Shown here piece by piece: positions 1 to 5,832 of a DNA stretch of 64,000 nt. Numbering within the stretch: position 1 is the stretch's first letter; each line of letters begins with the position of its first letter. A program made the position numbers. The DNA lies in NCBI RefSeq assembly GCF_054482595.1, contig NZ_CM137008.1; one strand, written 5' to 3'.

Positions 1-3000
1 GCGCTTTGTCGGTATTGAGCGTGGCAGGCTTTTCCCAGTGCTTCAGGCCTCGCAGGGCCTTGCCCAGGAACCGCTTCGCTGCCTTGGCGCTGCGGGTCGG
101 CGACAGGTAGAAATCGATCGTGTCGCCCCGCTTGTCGACTGCCCGGTACAGGTAGGTCCACTTGCCCCGCACCTTGACGTAGGTTTCATCCAGGCGCCAG
201 CTCGGATCAAAGCCACGCCGCCAGAACCAGCGCAGCCGCTTCTCCATCTCCGGGGCGTAGCACTGGACCCGGCACTGTTGCAAATAGTCGGTGGTGATAA
301 ACTTATCATCCCCTTTTGCTGATGGAGCTGCACATGAACCCATTCAAAGGCCGGCATTTTCAGCGTGACATCATTCTGTGGGCCGTACGCTGGTACTGCA
401 AATACGGCATCAGTTACCGTGAGCTGCAGGAGATGCTGGCTGAACGCGGAGTGAATGTCGATCACTCCACGATTTACCGCTGGGTTCAGCGTTATGCGCC
501 TGAAATGGAAAAACGGCTGCGCTGGTACTGGCGTAACCCTTCCGATCTTTGCCCGTGGCACATGGATGAAACCTACGTGAAGGTCAATGGCCGCTGGGCG
601 TATCTGTACCGGGCCGTCGACAGCCGGGGCCGCACTGTCGATTTTTATCTCTCCTCCCGTCGTAACAGCAAAGCTGCATACCGGTTTCTGGGTAAAATCC
701 TCAACAACGTGAAGAAGTGGCAGATCCCGCGATTCATCAACACGGATAAAGCGCCCGCCTATGGTCGCGCGCTTGCTCTGCTCAAACGCGAAGGCCGGTG
801 CCCGTCTGACGTTGAACACCGACAGATTAAGTACCGGAACAACGTGATTGAATGCGATCATGGCAAACTGAAACGGATAATCGGCGCCACGCTGGGATTT
901 AAATCCATGAAGACGGCTTACGCCACCATCAAAGGTATTGAGGTGATGCGTGCACTACGCAAAGGCCAGGCCTCAGCATTTTATTATGGTGATCCCCTGG
1001 GCGAAATGCGCCTGGTAAGCAGAGTTTTTGAAATGTAAGGCCTTTGAATAAGACAAAAGGCTGCCTCATCGCTAACTTTGCAACAGTGCCGAAGGAATTA
1101 CTCGCAGGACATCATCATCCCAATGACGCTCGTGCACCCGGACTATCTGACTGAGATACTCGACGGGGTAAGGCGGATCGACGATCAGCTGCTGCACATC
1201 TTTCTGACGCTCAACGAGGACCTATTGCGTCACCGGATCGCGAACCAGACCATGCATCCTGACCCGAATCGAAATGCGGAGATTCGAGAGTGGCGATTAG
1301 CGAATGTCGCCCGATGCTTGGCCGCAAGGGAACGGCTTCCATGCACAACCCGTGTTCTCGATAGTGGTGCACACACCAGCGATGAACTCGCAGCGATGGT
1401 GCTCGACGGAATCGATGGGCGCACCTGATCGCCTTCGACGCCTGCGCAAAGCGTAGCGCGAGGGTGGCGGGCTCACGACCAAACGCCCAGAGGTCGATCA
1501 TCGCAGGGATGTTTGGCTTTGTGGTGCGGACGACGGGACTCGAACCCGTACTCTCACAGAGAAGCAGATTTTCGTACCACCTCGACTTTCGCCGCCGTCT
1601 GATGACGTTCGTGGTCTGGACTGTCCCTTCGCCATTGCCCGAAGGCTTTAGGCGCCGCCCGTCCAGTCTCTACACCTTCCCCCGAAGGGGCTTGGCTCGG
1701 GATTGGCTTAGGGTATTGCCCGTTAGCGTTCCCCGACTTTGAGCGGTTCTACTCCGCGGATTTCCCCGCGGGCACTCCAATTTTAAAGTCTGCTGCGTCT
1801 ACCGATTTCGCCACGTCCGCCTTTTTTCGCCGTTCCTAGCGCTCGTGCGATGCACCTATGTTGCACCTAGCGCCGAATCGTTCTTCGTCATCCTGAAAAA
1901 CCACGTCTCCTAAAGCCTTGCATAGCTTATCTTTTCTCCACCACGAACTTTTTTGTGGGATGGTAGAAAAAAAGACTTTTTAAGTCCGCTGGCTTGCCAG
2001 GCCTTGTTAGCTTGTACGGTCATGGTTATCGGGTAAAGAATATTGACGGCATCGCTGGTGTCGGTGGCTGAAAAGCCGGCTCCCATCAGGGCAATAGCCA
2101 TTTCAGATGCAGGCGTACAGGGCAATGGTCAACAGCTACAGCCTGTCTGACGATTCCGGCGTCATGGCTGCGGCGGCTATCACGCATTTTTTGTTCGGTC
2201 AGGCGGTGTTTTCGTACCTCAATGGTTGGAGCGTGTTGATCGGACCTGGTACAGGTTTGGACAGCACGGGCTGCAAATACGCAAGGGATTTAATGGGCCT
2301 GGTGGCGTTCACGGCTTTTATCGTGACGTTTCTGTTCAGGGGCTACTCATAATCTCGTGGCTCGGCGGTTCCCGGCACACCATGACAGTAAGGAAGGACC
2401 CTGTGTCTCAACTCTCCCAGCTTCGAAGCCCCGCCGCCGTGCAGGCTGCCATCGATGAGTTCGTGCAACTGGGCCGCACGAAATTCCTGGCGCGCCACGG
2501 CTACGGCAAGTCCCGCGACTTCCTGGTACGTGATCCGAAGACCGGCACCGATTGCGATTCCAAGGCCATCGCCGGTGTGGCCTTCGGCAAGCAATTTCCC
2601 GAGCAGGGCCCGCTCACTGCTGACAGCTTCTCCGGTGGCGAGACGACCGTCGTTCCGGCGCTGACGCGGCTCGGGTTTCGCATCATTCGCATCGGCGAAG
2701 ACTGGTCCGAAGAAGAGGTCCTGGCCACGGTCGAAGACTATTTCGACATGCTGCGTGCCGAGGCGGCTGGGGAGCCGTACCACAAGTCCGAGCACAACCA
2801 GGCACTGCGCCAACTGCTGAACGGTCGCAGCAAGTCTTCAGTCGAGCTCAAGCACCAGAACATTAGCGCCGTACTCGATGCCCTGGGCCTGCCCTATATC
2901 AACGGCTACAAGCCACGCGGCAACAGCCAACTGCTGCTGCGTAAATCCGTACACGCCTACGTTCTGGAACATCAGCAGACGGTCGGCGCTCTTGTCGATG

Positions 3001-5832
3001 CCCTGGAGGAGGTAAAACTTCCGGGTGACAAAACCTACCGAGCGGCTTTGGTAGAACCACCCGCCCGTGAAGTGCTTGTGCGTACCCCGGCATCTCTACG
3101 GCAACGCCTACCGCGAAAGTTCGATTATGCCGCTCGCGATGAAGCCAACCGCAAGCTGGGCCGGGCAGGGGAGCAGTGGGTGATTGGCTACGAACAGCAA
3201 CGCCTGACCGAGCTCGGCCACCCAGAGCTTTTTCAGCGGCTGGATTGGGTGTCCGACACCCAGGGAGACGGTGCGGGGTTCGACATCCTGTCGTTCGAAG
3301 AGGACGCCCATGAGCGCTTCATCGAGGTGAAAACCACCAATGGCGGGGTAGGCTCGTCTTTCTTGGTCAGCCACAACGAACTCGAATTCTCCAAGGAGGC
3401 GGGCGATCAATTCCATCTGTATCGCGTGTTCCAGTTTCGGGACGGTCCGCGCCTGTTCACGCTACCCGGCGACCTCAGCCAACATGTGCATCTCAAGCCG
3501 ACGGACTACCGGGCGAGTTTCCGGAGTTTGGTGGGGTAAAGGCAGGGTTCTGTTGAGCCGAATGGCTGTGTGCGGCCGATTCTGTTGAAAAAGTAGCGGC
3601 CTCCCCATGCCGTTGGCAAAATTGCTTTGTCAGCGAGCGTGGGGGCGAACAGCATGATGGGACAGTTACCGGGAGGACAGCAGCGCCTGTTCTACTCGTT
3701 CAATCTGGAAGATCACGTCCCGGCCCAACATCTCCTGCGCAGCATCGACCAGTGCTTGGATCTCAGTGATCTACGTGCCTACCTGGCAGATTTCTATAGC
3801 CCCATCGGGCGTCCCTCGATTGACCCGGAGTTGATGGTGCGCATGCTGGTCGTCGGCTACTGCTATGGCATTCGTTCCGAGCGGCGATTGTGCGAAGAGG
3901 TGCACCTGAACCTGGCCTATCGCTGGTTCTGCCGGTTGGGTCTGGAAGACGAAGTCCCCAATCACTCGACCTTCTCGAAGAATCGCCATGGGCGTTTTCG
4001 TGACAGCGATCTATTCCGCTGGTTATTCAATGAGGTGCTGCGGCGCTGCATGGCAGCCGGCCTAGTCAAGGGTGAAGGTTTCGCCGTCGACGCCAGCATC
4101 ATTAAGGCGGATGCCAGCCGGCAACGTGGGGTGGCGGGAGATGAGGTCGATTGGAACGATCCAAAGCTCAGCAGCCGCGCAGTGCGCGAGTACCTCGAAG
4201 CCCTTGATGAAGAGGCGCTGGCTGAGGCTCTTCCCAAGAAAATTTCGCTCACTGATCCTCAGTCCCGTTGGACAGCAGCGCCAGGTGGCCCGGCCTTTTT
4301 TGCCTACTCCACGAATTACCTGATCGACACTGAGCACGGTGTGATCATGGACGTGGAAGCTACCCCGGCGCACCGTACCGCCGAAGTCGATTCGACTAGG
4401 ACGATGGTCGAGCGTGTCGAGGCGCAGTTCGATCTCACACCGGAACGCCTTATCGGCGATACCGCTTATGGCACCGCCCCGATGCTGGCCTGGATGGTCG
4501 AAGAAAAGGACATCGAACCGCATGTGCCGGTGTGGGACAAGACCGAGCGCAAGGACGACAGCCTCTCCAGTAACGACTTTCACTGGAGTCAGGACGCCAA
4601 TGAATATCGCTGCCCAGCCGGCAAACCGCTACGCAGTGAATGGCGCGCCTTCACCCAGCAAAGGTCGCGGGTAACTAAGGCCAAAACCGTCATTTACCGC
4701 TCCAGCCAAACCGACTGCGCCACCTGCCCGTTGAAAGCGAAATGCTGCCCCAACACGCCGAATCGGAAGATCGTCCGCAGCATCCATGAGGCTGCCCGCG
4801 ACGTGGCTCGACGCATCGCCAAGACACCGGAGTACCTCGTCTCTCGCTGCGAACGAAAGAAGGTGGAGATGCTTTTCGCCCACCTCAAACGGATCATGAA
4901 ACTCGACCGTTTACGACTGCGTGGCCTAACGGGTGCCACTGACGAATTAACCTTGGCTGCGATGGTGCAGAACCTGCGCCGCATGGCCAAGCTTTTGCCT
5001 CAAGGGCCACCGCTGACGGGATAGGTATGCCTGCTACGAGCAGAAACCCTCAAATTAACCCTTAAACCTGAGCAAGGACGCTCAGTGAAACGCCGGAAGG
5101 CAACTTGAAGTGGCTTGCAGCCACTTCGACAGCAGGCACACCTGATCGGCAGGCTGCCGCTAAAGCTACTTTTTCAACAGAATCGGCCGATTTGTGCCGG
5201 TCGTCAAGGACCGCTTCGGATCACTCTCAACCGGATCGCGGGCCAGCTGATTTGCTAAAACCCGCGCCAAACTCAACGAAGGATTTCGCATGATCCGTTT
5301 TTTTTGGCGATCACGCTCGGCCTGATGGTTGGCTGCTCGTCGAGTTCAAGTTCGATCTGATCAGTGAGCGGTAGCGCAAGTGGATCGCCTCAGCCAAGCA
5401 GCGTTGTTGCCGGCGGCCGGAAGAAAGCCTTGAACTAGTAGCGGAAAGGATGAAACTTTATTTTTACGATTCTCAGCATTTTCCAAGGTTGAGCGAAAAT
5501 TAGGATGATACTTTAATGATTCCGGCCTCCATCCCCACAAAACGCTTGCAGATGGCAGAATTGAAATAAGTCATTGTTTTAAATGGATTTTTGCAGGAAT
5601 TGCTACGTTGCAGGGTCCTGTAGTTAGGATGACACTTTATTTTCCTCCCACAGGCCTCGTGATACGCCTATTTTTATAGGTTAATGTCATGATAATAATG
5701 GTTTCTTAGACGTCAGGTGGCACTTTTCGGGGAAATGTGCGCGGAACCCCTATTTGTTTATTTTTCTAAATACATTCAAATATGTATCCGCTCATGAGAC
5801 AATAACCCTGGTAAATGCTTCAATAATATTGA

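What the first reader, a model, noticed from the sequence alone, without database searches (positions are those of the whole stretch)
2382..3539. Putative PD-(D/E)xK nuclease (DUF3883) carried as cargo next to the intron-tRNA
The C-terminal domain carries a D...E-V-K signature (GFDILSF...ERFIEVK) typical of restriction-endonuclease-fold nucleases, fused to an N-terminal domain I could not assign. Such proteins are often Mrr-like or defence-type nucleases. It sits between a tRNA gene and an IS1182-family element in foreign GC-rich DNA, a typical position for accessory defence cargo.
Basis: inference. Interest (0 to 1): 0.55.

Follow-up and report, generated by a model that had tools for sequence, protein, structure and literature searches.

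The report
Passenger DUF3883 nuclease in resistance module
The gene is real and encodes a three-part, restriction-enzyme-like DNA nuclease of a candidate anti-phage family; it was torn from a Stutzerimonas/Pseudomonas defence locus and now rides, untested and probably unselected, inside a common antibiotic-resistance module found in about one in nine complete E. coli genomes.

Summary
An intact ORF ends at 3539. Its likely start is GTG 2403 (378 aa), not ATG 2382. The C-terminus is a NOV_C/DUF3883 PD-(D/E)xK domain (Pfam E 2e-21). E257, D294 and K310 are invariant and E308 is ≥90% conserved across 145 family representatives, and the predicted fold is Hjc-like.

The unassigned N-terminus is the ScoMcrA "head" domain (profile vs PDB 5zmm, E 1e-7). 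A conserved middle domain has a homeodomain-like three-helix fold. Residues 105-380 match PADLOC's candidate single-gene family PDC-S36 (E 2e-106). Relatives lie beside Druantia, Zorya, Azaca, Wadjet, Gabija and type I R-M genes.

The gene is the known but uncharacterised "orf1182" of the aacC2-tmrB-ISCfr1-blaTEM-1 module, here inserted in the E. coli chromosome. Window 2126-3572 is about 92% identical to Stutzerimonas DNA. There the gene follows a 1,705-aa RecQ+UvrD helicase and a small ORF. The helicase was not captured, and the small ORF is cut at the junction.

The segment occurs in 1,236 plasmids and 602 of 5,426 complete E. coli genomes. IS26 clips the gene's 3' end in roughly 30% of plasmid copies.

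This is an ordinary new member of a known kind. Its function is plausible but untested.

The parts
2403..3539 (+). Nuclease gene (orf1182, WP_000080861.1), 378 aa plus stop.
   Evidence: ORF list and translation; PGAP coordinates in L001; homologue lengths and starts; dN/dS 0.06-0.10.
2390..2398 (+). Shine-Dalgarno-like AAGGAAGGA upstream of GTG 2403.
   Evidence: Read from the sequence. Conserved in L010/L011.
2403..2690 (+). N-terminal ScoMcrA-type 'head' domain (aa 1-96).
2691..3047 (+). Family-specific helical middle domain (aa 97-215). Its first three helices (aa 103-160) have a homeodomain-like fold. The most conserved motif, RSxxSVELKHQNISAVL, forms the third helix.
3123..3536 (+). C-terminal NOV_C/DUF3883 PD-(D/E)xK nuclease domain (aa 241-378; Pfam match aa 256-353, nt 3168-3461).
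3171..3332 (+). Predicted catalytic residues: E257 (3171-3173), D294 (3282-3284), E308 (3324-3326), K310 (3330-3332).
   Evidence: E257, D294 and K310 invariant and E308 >=90% conserved in 145 representatives. Coordinates checked.
2126..3572 (+). Fragment of Stutzerimonas/Pseudomonas-type origin captured in the resistance module. It holds the 3' part of a small ORF plus the nuclease gene.
   Evidence: About 92% DNA identity to S. stutzeri V81 (L010) and S. nitrititolerans GL14 (L011), from 2126 to 3577. No homology left of 2126.
2125..2352 (+). orf228: 5'-truncated remnant (75 of 100 codons) of a small hydrophobic ORF that lies between the helicase and the nuclease in L010/L011. Its ATG is created at the junction.
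   Evidence: Alignment and translations. PGAP WP_000248278.1. No PADLOC or PHROGs match.
3573..5189 (+). ISCfr1 (IS1182 family), with 25-nt inverted repeats at 3573-3597 and 5165-5189. It starts 34 nt after the nuclease stop codon.
   Evidence: Self-match of the ends. PGAP annotation. A 94.8%-identical copy sits at the equivalent site downstream of the orthologue in L002.

Best explanation
SHOWN. The ORF encodes a 378-aa, three-module protein. The modules are a ScoMcrA-type head domain, a conserved helical domain whose first three helices are homeodomain-like, and a C-terminal NOV_C/DUF3883 PD-(D/E)xK nuclease core with an intact E257...D294...E308-x-K310 site. It belongs to a large family (8,053 cluster representatives) whose roughly 280-aa core (middle domain plus nuclease) equals PADLOC's candidate single-gene defence family PDC-S36. 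The N-terminus of that family is modular: head domain, EVE, other extensions, or none.

The copy in the window is a passenger of the aacC2-tmrB-ISCfr1-blaTEM-1 resistance module. It derives from a Stutzerimonas/Pseudomonas-type locus in which the gene follows a 1,705-1,729-aa RecQ+UvrD fused helicase. That helicase was left behind.

INFERRED. The protein is a divalent-metal-dependent DNA endonuclease of the restriction or defence type. The middle helix-turn-helix-like domain positions it on DNA. The exchangeable N-terminal domain acts as the sensor or specificity module, as in Type IV modification-dependent enzymes. Cleavage by the Hjc-like core restricts invading phage or plasmid DNA.

In enterobacterial hosts it spreads by hitch-hiking with antibiotic-resistance genes. 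Whether it is expressed and active there, and whether it needs the lost helicase, is not shown.
For: Domain identity:
- Pfam NOV_C, E 2e-21.
- ScoMcrA_N precomputed on homologues, and a profile hit to 5zmm residues 8-95, E 1.1e-7.
- AF2 pLDDT 94, pTM 0.84.

Active site: E257, D294 and K310 invariant and E308 >=90% conserved in 145 representatives. Purifying selection: dN/dS 0.06-0.10.

Defence link:
- PDC-S36 E 2.4e-106 over the full model; PD-T4-1 1.8e-18; TmtA 2e-14.
- Neighbours of relatives include Gabija-like OLD+UvrD, DruE, ZacB/C and JetC, ZorA, DrmD-like and mad2, an apparent type I R-M read from ORF sizes, and integrases.

Modular N-terminus: of 150 representatives, 46 have a head domain, about 63 are core-only and 41 carry other extensions. 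Three have EVE.

Precedent: YenY4I uses a DUF3883 domain as the catalytic domain of an active modification-dependent endonuclease (PMC6765204). PD-T4-1 is an active PD-(D/E)XK defence nuclease (bioRxiv 10.1101/2025.07.10.664194).

Origin and passenger status:
- Window 2126-3577 is about 92% identical to L010/L011.
- The helicase is adjacent in 10 of 38 head-type loci.
- The module is described in PMC7096625.
- The segment is in 1,236 plasmids and 602 of 5,426 E. coli genomes, at >=99% identity.
Against: - No activity has been measured for this protein. As far as I could find, none has been measured for any PDC-S36 member (searches found no papers).
- The head domain has no known function even in ScoMcrA (PMC6224610). 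No recognised modification reader (SRA, SBD, EVE, PUA) is present in this protein.
- The homeodomain-like match is a small three-helix fold that can arise by convergence.
- No sigma-70-like promoter was found upstream.
- In an evenly spaced sample of plasmid hits, 9 of 30 copies are clipped by IS26 at window position 3504. That removes the conserved C-terminal YRA motif, and a few copies are cut further. This argues against selection for the gene in its present hosts.
- The defence-island evidence is a sample of neighbours, not a statistical test. About half of the sampled large neighbours had no PADLOC hit.
Confidence: 0.6

Rival explanations
1. Inert relic. The gene is a correctly identified nuclease gene, but in Enterobacteriaceae it is a silent or useless passenger. 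It is kept only because it lies between selected resistance genes and ISCfr1, and it has no effect on host, phage or plasmid biology.
For: All but two of 1,236 plasmid records are >=99% identical to the window copy, so the segment's spread is recent and says nothing about selection. IS26-truncated variants are common, and further truncations exist. No consensus promoter was found. The upstream small ORF is cut, and the operon partner is missing.
Against: The ORF is intact here and in more than half of sampled copies. Stand-alone family members are the majority in nature. It is co-oriented with aacC2/tmrB, so read-through transcription is possible.
Confidence: 0.3
2. Obligate effector of a helicase-nuclease system. 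The nuclease works only with the RecQ+UvrD fused helicase that precedes it in Pseudomonas and Stutzerimonas, as in nuclease-NTPase systems. The orphan copy here is therefore inactive.
For: The helicase is adjacent in 10 of 38 head-type loci. The intergenic gap is 1-15 nt in L002 and L013. Adjacency is retained at 35-44% helicase identity in Variovorax, Cupriavidus and a Bacteroidia MAG, once in divergent orientation. L009 keeps a 53-codon helicase remnant. A DUF2075/Nhi-like NTPase is a neighbour in 4 loci. NTPase coupling of DUF3883 enzymes was proposed in PMC6765204.
Against: 26 of 38 loci have neither the helicase nor that NTPase. Four helicase homologues sampled blind (65-73% identity) have no NOV_C neighbour. 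The core family is catalogued as a single-gene candidate.
Confidence: 0.2
3. Housekeeping DNA repair or recombination enzyme (Hjc- or RecU-like junction resolvase), not a conflict gene.
For: The closest solved folds for the catalytic core include Holliday-junction resolvases Hjc and RecU.
Against: The distribution is patchy and the gene sits in islands with integrases, IS elements and defence genes. The N-terminal domains are exchangeable. There is no NCBIfam equivalog. The gene is absent from most genomes of any species sampled.
Confidence: 0.05
4. Toxin-like or abortive-infection nuclease that degrades host DNA when triggered.
For: Many stand-alone defence nucleases act this way. The RecQ-like part of the neighbouring helicase resembles PsyrT.
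Against: No antitoxin-like partner is conserved. The gene is carried stably and intact on more than 1,000 plasmids without one.
Confidence: 0.05

Closest known systems
ScoMcrA (Streptomyces coelicolor Type IV phosphorothioate/5mC-dependent endonuclease, PDB 5zmm)
   Different: ScoMcrA has SBD and SRA reader domains and an HNH nuclease. This protein has none of these. It has a homeodomain-like helical domain and a PD-(D/E)xK NOV_C nuclease instead. The shared head domain has no known function (PMC6224610).
YenY4I / McaZI group (PUA-DUF3427-DUF3883 and DUF3427-DUF3883 modification-dependent endonucleases; PMC6765204)
   Same: It uses a DUF3883/NOV_C catalytic domain at the C-terminus behind exchangeable sensor domains. 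It occurs stand-alone or next to NTPases such as DUF2075, and in defence islands.
   Different: No PUA or DUF3427 domain is present here. The family-specific middle domain of this protein is not described for YenY4I. Modification dependence is untested.
PADLOC candidate PDC-S36
   Same: Residues 105-380 match the whole 280-position model (E 2.4e-106). The same roughly 280-aa core occurs as a stand-alone protein in about 40% of representatives.
   Different: This protein adds the ScoMcrA head domain. From my own knowledge, PDC families are guilt-by-association candidates without published validation. No paper was found.
PD-T4-1 and Tiamat TmtA (PADLOC models)
   Same: They share the C-terminal NOV_C-type nuclease domain (E 1.8e-18 and 2e-14). 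PD-T4-1 is reported as a dimeric PD-(D/E)XK nuclease that cuts ssDNA and nicks plasmids (bioRxiv 10.1101/2025.07.10.664194).
   Different: The similarity is confined to the last 140 residues or so. TmtA proteins are 1,300-1,650 aa. The head and middle domains are not matched.
Archaeal Hjc and I-Ssp6803I minimal PD-(D/E)xK nucleases
   Different: Sequence identity is only 11-15%. They have a different biology (junction resolution, homing) and no accessory domains.

Membership tests
NOV_C / DUF3883 (PF13020), PD-(D/E)xK superfamily | Significant match to the family profile over its full length | tested here: met
   E 2e-21, 76 bits, model positions 1-90 of 91. All 145 aligned relatives also match.
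NOV_C / DUF3883 (PF13020), PD-(D/E)xK superfamily | Catalytic E...D...(D/E)xK residues present and conserved | tested here: met
   E257, D294 and K310 are invariant and E308 is >=90% conserved in 145 representatives. The codons were verified.
NOV_C / DUF3883 (PF13020), PD-(D/E)xK superfamily | Restriction-endonuclease-like alpha/beta fold | tested here: met
NOV_C / DUF3883 (PF13020), PD-(D/E)xK superfamily | Metal-dependent phosphodiesterase activity | not testable with these tools
   Needs purified protein.
PADLOC PDC-S36 (candidate single-gene defence family) | Full-length match to the family model | tested here: met
   E 2.4e-106; protein residues 105-380 against model positions 4-279 of 280.
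PADLOC PDC-S36 (candidate single-gene defence family) | Acts as a single gene and protects against phage | not testable with these tools
   26 of 38 natural loci lack the helicase and the NTPase, and the plasmid copies stand alone. No functional data were found.
Type IV modification-dependent restriction endonucleases (ScoMcrA-like) | A recognised modified-DNA reader domain (SBD, SRA, PUA/EVE, DUF3427) fused to the nuclease | tested here: not met
   Only the head domain of ScoMcrA is shared. Pfam and NCBIfam find no reader domain. EVE occurs in 3 of 145 relatives, not in this protein.
Type IV modification-dependent restriction endonucleases (ScoMcrA-like) | Cleavage depends on DNA modification | not testable with these tools
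   Needs assays on modified and unmodified substrates.
Mrr family (Mrr_cat PF04471) | Match to the Mrr catalytic-domain profile | tested here: not met
   No Mrr_cat hit at E <= 10 for this protein. One relative of 145 has a marginal Mrr_N hit only.
Two-gene nuclease-NTPase defence systems (PD-T4-1, Hachiman or Gabija type) | An adjacent helicase or NTPase gene in the same locus | tested here: not met
   In the window, homology to the natural locus stops at 2126, which is downstream of where the helicase ends in L010/L011. No fused helicase is present in the window. In nature the feature is met in 10 of 38 loci.
Two-gene nuclease-NTPase defence systems (PD-T4-1, Hachiman or Gabija type) | Full-length similarity to a described system's nuclease | tested here: inconclusive
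   The PD-T4-1 model is matched only over positions 231-377 of 383, the nuclease domain (E 1.8e-18).

The most novel reading that the evidence does not exclude
The orphan nuclease may be an active stand-alone restriction-type enzyme in Enterobacteriaceae. Aminoglycoside and beta-lactam use would then have co-selected a phage- and plasmid-restriction gene now present in about 11% of complete E. coli genomes. In addition, its natural Pseudomonas/Stutzerimonas operon (a roughly 1,710-aa RecQ+UvrD double helicase followed by the head-HTH-NOV_C nuclease) may be an undescribed two-gene defence system in which the ScoMcrA head domain is the sensor.
Probability: 0.15. Interest if true: 0.6.

Novelty: new member of a known kind. 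Interest (0 to 1): 0.3.

Why it matters
If active, this would be a defence or restriction gene spreading with antibiotic-resistance genes: aac(3)-IId, and blaTEM-1 or, in the IS26-cut variant seen, mph(A). It is on more than 1,200 sequenced plasmids. It could therefore affect phage therapy, plasmid compatibility and transformation of clinical strains.

It also offers a small, well-behaved model for two uncharacterised modules. The model protein is 378 aa and its AF2 pLDDT is 94. The modules are the ScoMcrA head domain and the conserved helical domain of the PDC-S36 family.

If inactive, it is simply a useful marker of the Stutzerimonas/Pseudomonas origin of part of the aacC2-tmrB module.

Tried and rejected
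- NCBIfam and PHROGs gave no family for the protein.
- Sequence search of PDB with the single protein was marginal. With the middle-domain profile it found nothing.
- Alignment A1 was too diverse for the search for related loci, so I used A2.
- Literature searches for PDC-S36, for Tiamat/TmtA with DUF3883, and for the protein accessions found nothing. The Vassallo paper's main text does not describe PD-T4-1.
- A promoter scan found no sigma-70-like site.
- A PDB sequence search with the helicase's N-terminal 290 aa found nothing.

Rejected ideas:
- The gene as part of ISCfr1. The inverted repeats at 3573-3597 and 5165-5189 exclude it, and L010/L011 have the gene without the IS.
- The tRNA as the integration site of a defence island. 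The breakpoint at 2125/2126 separates DNA of different origin.
- The small ORF as a conserved third component. It is present only in the L010/L011 lineage.
- A phage gene. Only 9 of 50,697 phage records have partial, nuclease-domain-only matches.
- A strict helicase-nuclease operon. The helicase family mostly lacks the nuclease.

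
Full report
**1. Observation**

The + strand carries an uninterrupted ORF from TTG 2226 to the stop at 3537-3539.

The most likely start is GTG 2403:
- A Shine-Dalgarno-like AAGGAAGGA lies at 2390-2398.
- PGAP annotates 378 aa (WP_000080861.1, 'DUF3883 domain-containing protein').
- All natural homologues are 378-380 aa and begin at the equivalent GTG or ATG.

The quoted motifs are there: GFDILSF at aa 292-298 and ERFIEVK at aa 304-310.

Pfam places aa 256-353 in NOV_C (PF13020, formerly DUF3883) with E 2e-21 over the whole model. In an alignment of 145 representatives of 50%-identity clusters, E257, D294 and K310 are invariant and E308 is at least 90% conserved. dN/dS against natural orthologues is 0.06-0.10.

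**2. Anatomy of the protein**

An AlphaFold2 model built on the 145-sequence alignment is confident (pLDDT 94, pTM 0.84). It resolves three modules.

(a) Residues 1-96 form an alpha/beta domain homologous to the 'head' domain of the Type IV enzyme ScoMcrA.
- Precomputed PF26345 ScoMcrA_N is recorded on every close homologue.
- The family profile hits PDB 5zmm residues 8-95 with E 1.1e-7.
- The ScoMcrA authors state that this domain is small, flexibly attached and of unknown function (PMC6224610).

(b) Residues 97-215 form a helical domain specific to this family. It holds the most conserved sequence outside the active site (W101, Y113, K128, R142, E148, K150, N153; motif RSxxSVELKHQNISAVL).
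- The conserved KHQN motif lies in the third helix. That this is a DNA-recognition helix is my inference. Small three-helix folds can converge, and there is no sequence match in PDB.

There is no Mrr_cat, HNH, SRA, SBD or EVE domain in this protein.

**3. The family**

An exhaustive HMMER search finds 8,053 cluster representatives at E <= 1e-3. The conserved unit is query residues 98-373, about 280 aa. This unit is exactly what PADLOC models as candidate PDC-S36 (E 2.4e-106, model positions 4-279 of 280).

Among the 150 best representatives:

| N-terminal state | Representatives |
|---|---|
| ScoMcrA-type head domain | 46 |
| Core only | about 63 |
| Other N-terminal extensions, up to 350 aa | 41 |

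Three have a Pfam EVE domain. By eye, several others look PUA/EVE-like, but I did not test that.

An invariant nuclease core behind an exchangeable N-terminal module is the architecture of modification-dependent (Type IV) endonucleases. A DUF3883 domain is the catalytic domain of the experimentally active YenY4I (PMC6765204). The C-terminal domain also matches the PADLOC models for PD-T4-1 (1.8e-18) and Tiamat TmtA (2e-14). PD-T4-1 is reported as a dimeric PD-(D/E)XK nuclease that cuts ssDNA and nicks plasmids (bioRxiv 10.1101/2025.07.10.664194).

The family is almost absent from phage genomes. Nine of 50,697 records have matches, all partial and nearly all confined to the nuclease domain.

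**4. Natural context**

The closest natural proteins are in Stutzerimonas and Pseudomonas, at 84-94% identity.

In S. kunmingensis-type contigs (L002-L004), a metagenome contig (L005), S. stutzeri V81 (L010), S. nitrititolerans GL14 (L011) and Pseudomonas sp. BN417 (L013), the gene lies 1 to about 400 nt downstream of a co-oriented 1,705-1,729-aa protein. That protein fuses a RecQ-family helicase to a UvrD-family helicase. The RecQ part passes the NCBIfam recQ_fam cut-off and resembles PADLOC DpdF and PsyrT at 1e-84 to 1e-103. The UvrD part is GajB-like.

Clustering the neighbours of 38 head-type loci gives this helicase next to the nuclease in 10 loci. Two of these are Variovorax-type loci where it is divergently oriented at 42% identity. 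Outside that set, it also precedes core-type nucleases in a Cupriavidus and a Bacteroidia locus. Pseudomonas sp. gcc21 (L009) keeps only the first 53 helicase codons.

The link is facultative, however:
- 26 of 38 loci lack both the helicase and the DUF2075/Nhi-like NTPase seen in four loci.
- Four helicase homologues chosen blind (65-73% identity) have no NOV_C neighbour. They sit instead next to Shedu, TerB/BrxC-like and MmeI-like genes, or next to core genes.

Other neighbours of the nuclease:
- Gabija-like OLD+UvrD.
- Druantia DruE, Azaca ZacB/C and Wadjet JetC.
- Zorya ZorA, a DrmD-like SNF2 protein and a mad2 methylase.
- An apparent type I R-M system.
- Integrases.

This is typical defence-island company. 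I sampled neighbours rather than testing enrichment, and about half of the sampled large neighbours had no PADLOC hit.

**5. Context in the window**

The gene is the 'orf1182' of the published aacC2-tmrB-orf192-orf228-orf1182-ISCfr1 module that replaced tnpR-res-tnpA of Tn2 (PMC7096625).

| Window position | Feature |
|---|---|
| 270-1090 | IS26; it has removed aac(3)-IId and the 5' part of tmrB |
| about 1522-1834 (minus strand) | Intron-containing tRNA-Leu(UAA)-like gene |
| 1910-2101 | orf192 |
| 2125-2352 | orf228 |
| 2403-3539 | Nuclease gene |
| 3573-5189 | ISCfr1 |
| 5845-6705 | blaTEM-1 |
| 6825-6852 | Tn2 inverted repeat |
| beyond 6852 | E. coli chromosomal ETT2 type III secretion locus |

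DNA comparison shows that only window 2126-3577 is homologous to the Stutzerimonas loci. Identity is about 92% overall and about 97% in the 277 nt upstream of the gene.

The left breakpoint falls inside a 100-codon hydrophobic ORF that separates helicase and nuclease in L010 and L011. orf228 is its 3' 75 codons, with an ATG created by the junction. The helicase gene ends about 130 nt before the breakpoint in L011, so it was not captured. No such helicase is present elsewhere in the window.

On the right, ISCfr1 begins 34 nt after the stop codon. In L002 a 94.8%-identical ISCfr1-like element sits at the equivalent site downstream of an orthologue that is only 83.5% identical. The IS therefore meets this gene in its natural hosts. 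It is the probable vehicle of capture, which is my inference.

**6. Spread and selection in present hosts**

- The 1,447-nt fragment occurs in 1,236 of 72,556 plasmids. The hosts are Escherichia, Klebsiella, Salmonella, Acinetobacter and others.
- It also occurs in 602 of 5,426 complete E. coli genomes, at 550 plasmid and 81 chromosomal places.
- All but two of the 1,236 plasmid records, and all but one of the 620 E. coli records, are >=99% identical.

In an evenly spaced sample of 30 plasmid hits:

| State of the gene | Hits |
|---|---|
| Full-length | 17 |
| Cut at window position 3504 by IS26 | 9 |
| Shorter still | 4 |

The IS26 cut replaces the last 11 codons, including the conserved YRA motif (WP_014837927.1). 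Together with the absence of a recognisable promoter, this suggests the gene is a hitch-hiker and not under selection there. The copy in this window is intact.

**7. Mechanism, with status of each step**

- Shown by computation: the domain composition, the conserved catalytic tetrad, family membership, the origin of the fragment and the loss of the helicase.
- Inferred: a metal-dependent DNA endonuclease in which the homeodomain-like domain binds DNA. The exchangeable N-terminal domain supplies target discrimination. The protein acts in defence against foreign DNA, possibly as a dimer like PD-T4-1.
- Not known: substrate, modification dependence, the need for the helicase, and expression in Enterobacteriaceae.

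Rivals, with my confidence in each:

| Explanation | Confidence |
|---|---|
| Inert passenger | 0.3 |
| Obligate helicase partner | 0.2 |
| Repair resolvase | 0.05 |
| Abortive-infection or toxin-like nuclease | 0.05 |

**8. Comparison and novelty**

The protein works like a Type IV or defence nuclease of the YenY4I or PDC-S36 kind. It passes the tests for NOV_C/PD-(D/E)xK and for PDC-S36. It fails the tests for Mrr and for a bona fide ScoMcrA-like Type IV enzyme, because no reader domain and no HNH domain are present. In this window it also fails the test for a two-gene nuclease-NTPase system.

The ORF is already annotated and named in the resistance-plasmid literature, but it has never been characterised. 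I rate it a new member of a known kind, with modest interest (0.3).

The more novel reading has two parts: an active, antibiotic-co-selected restriction gene, and an undescribed RecQ+UvrD-helicase/nuclease system in Pseudomonas. I give it a probability of about 0.15.

Noticed in passing
window ~1522..1834, minus strand: A tRNA-Leu(UAA)-like gene interrupted by a group I intron of about 225 nt at the canonical U34/A35 position. The 5' exon ends ...GCAGACTT, the intron ends ...GGTACG, the 3' exon begins AAAATCTGC, and there is a long variable arm. Default ARAGORN finds nothing. ARAGORN with the intron option finds it. Rfam Intron_gpI scores 36.8 bits, below its gathering score of 50. The gene is part of the aacC2-tmrB module, and its source organism is unknown.
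   Followed up: partly
window 2125..2352 (+): orf228 is the 3' 75 codons of a 100-codon hydrophobic ORF found between the helicase and the nuclease in S. stutzeri V81 and S. nitrititolerans GL14 (L011 7648-7950). Its start codon is created by the recombination junction at 2125/2126. It has no PADLOC or PHROGs match.
   Followed up: yes
window 3504 (equivalent site in L090, NZ_CP081307.1): A widespread variant of the module has IS26 inserted 35 nt before the nuclease stop codon. This gives WP_014837927.1 with an altered C-terminus, followed by mph(A)-mrx(A)-mphR(A). About 30% of sampled plasmid copies carry it.
   Followed up: partly
window 3573..5189; L002 11153..12768: An ISCfr1-like element (94.8% identity) sits at the same position downstream of the orthologous nuclease gene in a Stutzerimonas kunmingensis-type contig, although the genes are only 83.5% identical. 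This suggests site-specific insertion or ancient linkage, and a Stutzerimonas/Pseudomonas origin for ISCfr1 itself.
   Followed up: partly
window 270..1090 and 6825..6852; window >6852: The resistance module is chromosomal here. There is a single IS26 at the left. The Tn2 inverted repeat at 6825-6852 abuts ETT2 type III secretion genes (SpaN/EivJ, YscQ and EscR families). The identical junction is present in E. coli O157:H16 Santai, SM107, W619 and XH990. The left end of the insertion lies outside the window.
   Followed up: partly
L002 4810..9999; L011 2476..7593; L091-L099: A widespread family of about 1,710-aa proteins fuses a RecQ-family helicase and a UvrD-family helicase behind an unassigned 280-aa N-terminus. 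By eye the N-terminus has DEDD-exonuclease-like motifs; I did not test this. The genes sit in defence-island-like places (next to Shedu, TerB/BrxC-like and MmeI-like genes), and the protein matches no complete PADLOC system. It may be a defence gene in its own right.
   Followed up: partly
L009 9707..9865: Pseudomonas sp. gcc21 retains only the first 53 codons of the helicase immediately upstream of an intact nuclease gene. This is a natural example of the same orphaning seen in the resistance module.
   Followed up: no
L017, L019, L021, L024, L026, L029 (just downstream of the nuclease gene): In several Burkholderiales loci the nuclease gene is followed within a few nucleotides by a 130-aa HIT-family protein (ThsC-like, E 8e-14; 5 loci), a 360-aa protein with a weak PtuB/HNH-like region (5 loci), or both. 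This may be another linked module.
   Followed up: partly
L015, L026, L028, L034 (upstream, opposite strand): A 655-aa DUF2075-like protein (by eye) with weak PDC-S41, AbiO and Nhi-like matches recurs next to the nuclease. This echoes the DUF2075-DUF3883 pairing noted for McaZI in PMC6765204.
   Followed up: partly
L012 4328..7816: In S. stutzeri A563/77 a ZorA gene (Zorya type II model, E 4e-205) and two further co-oriented ORFs lie directly upstream of the nuclease gene. The last ORF ends 137 nt before the nuclease match.
   Followed up: no
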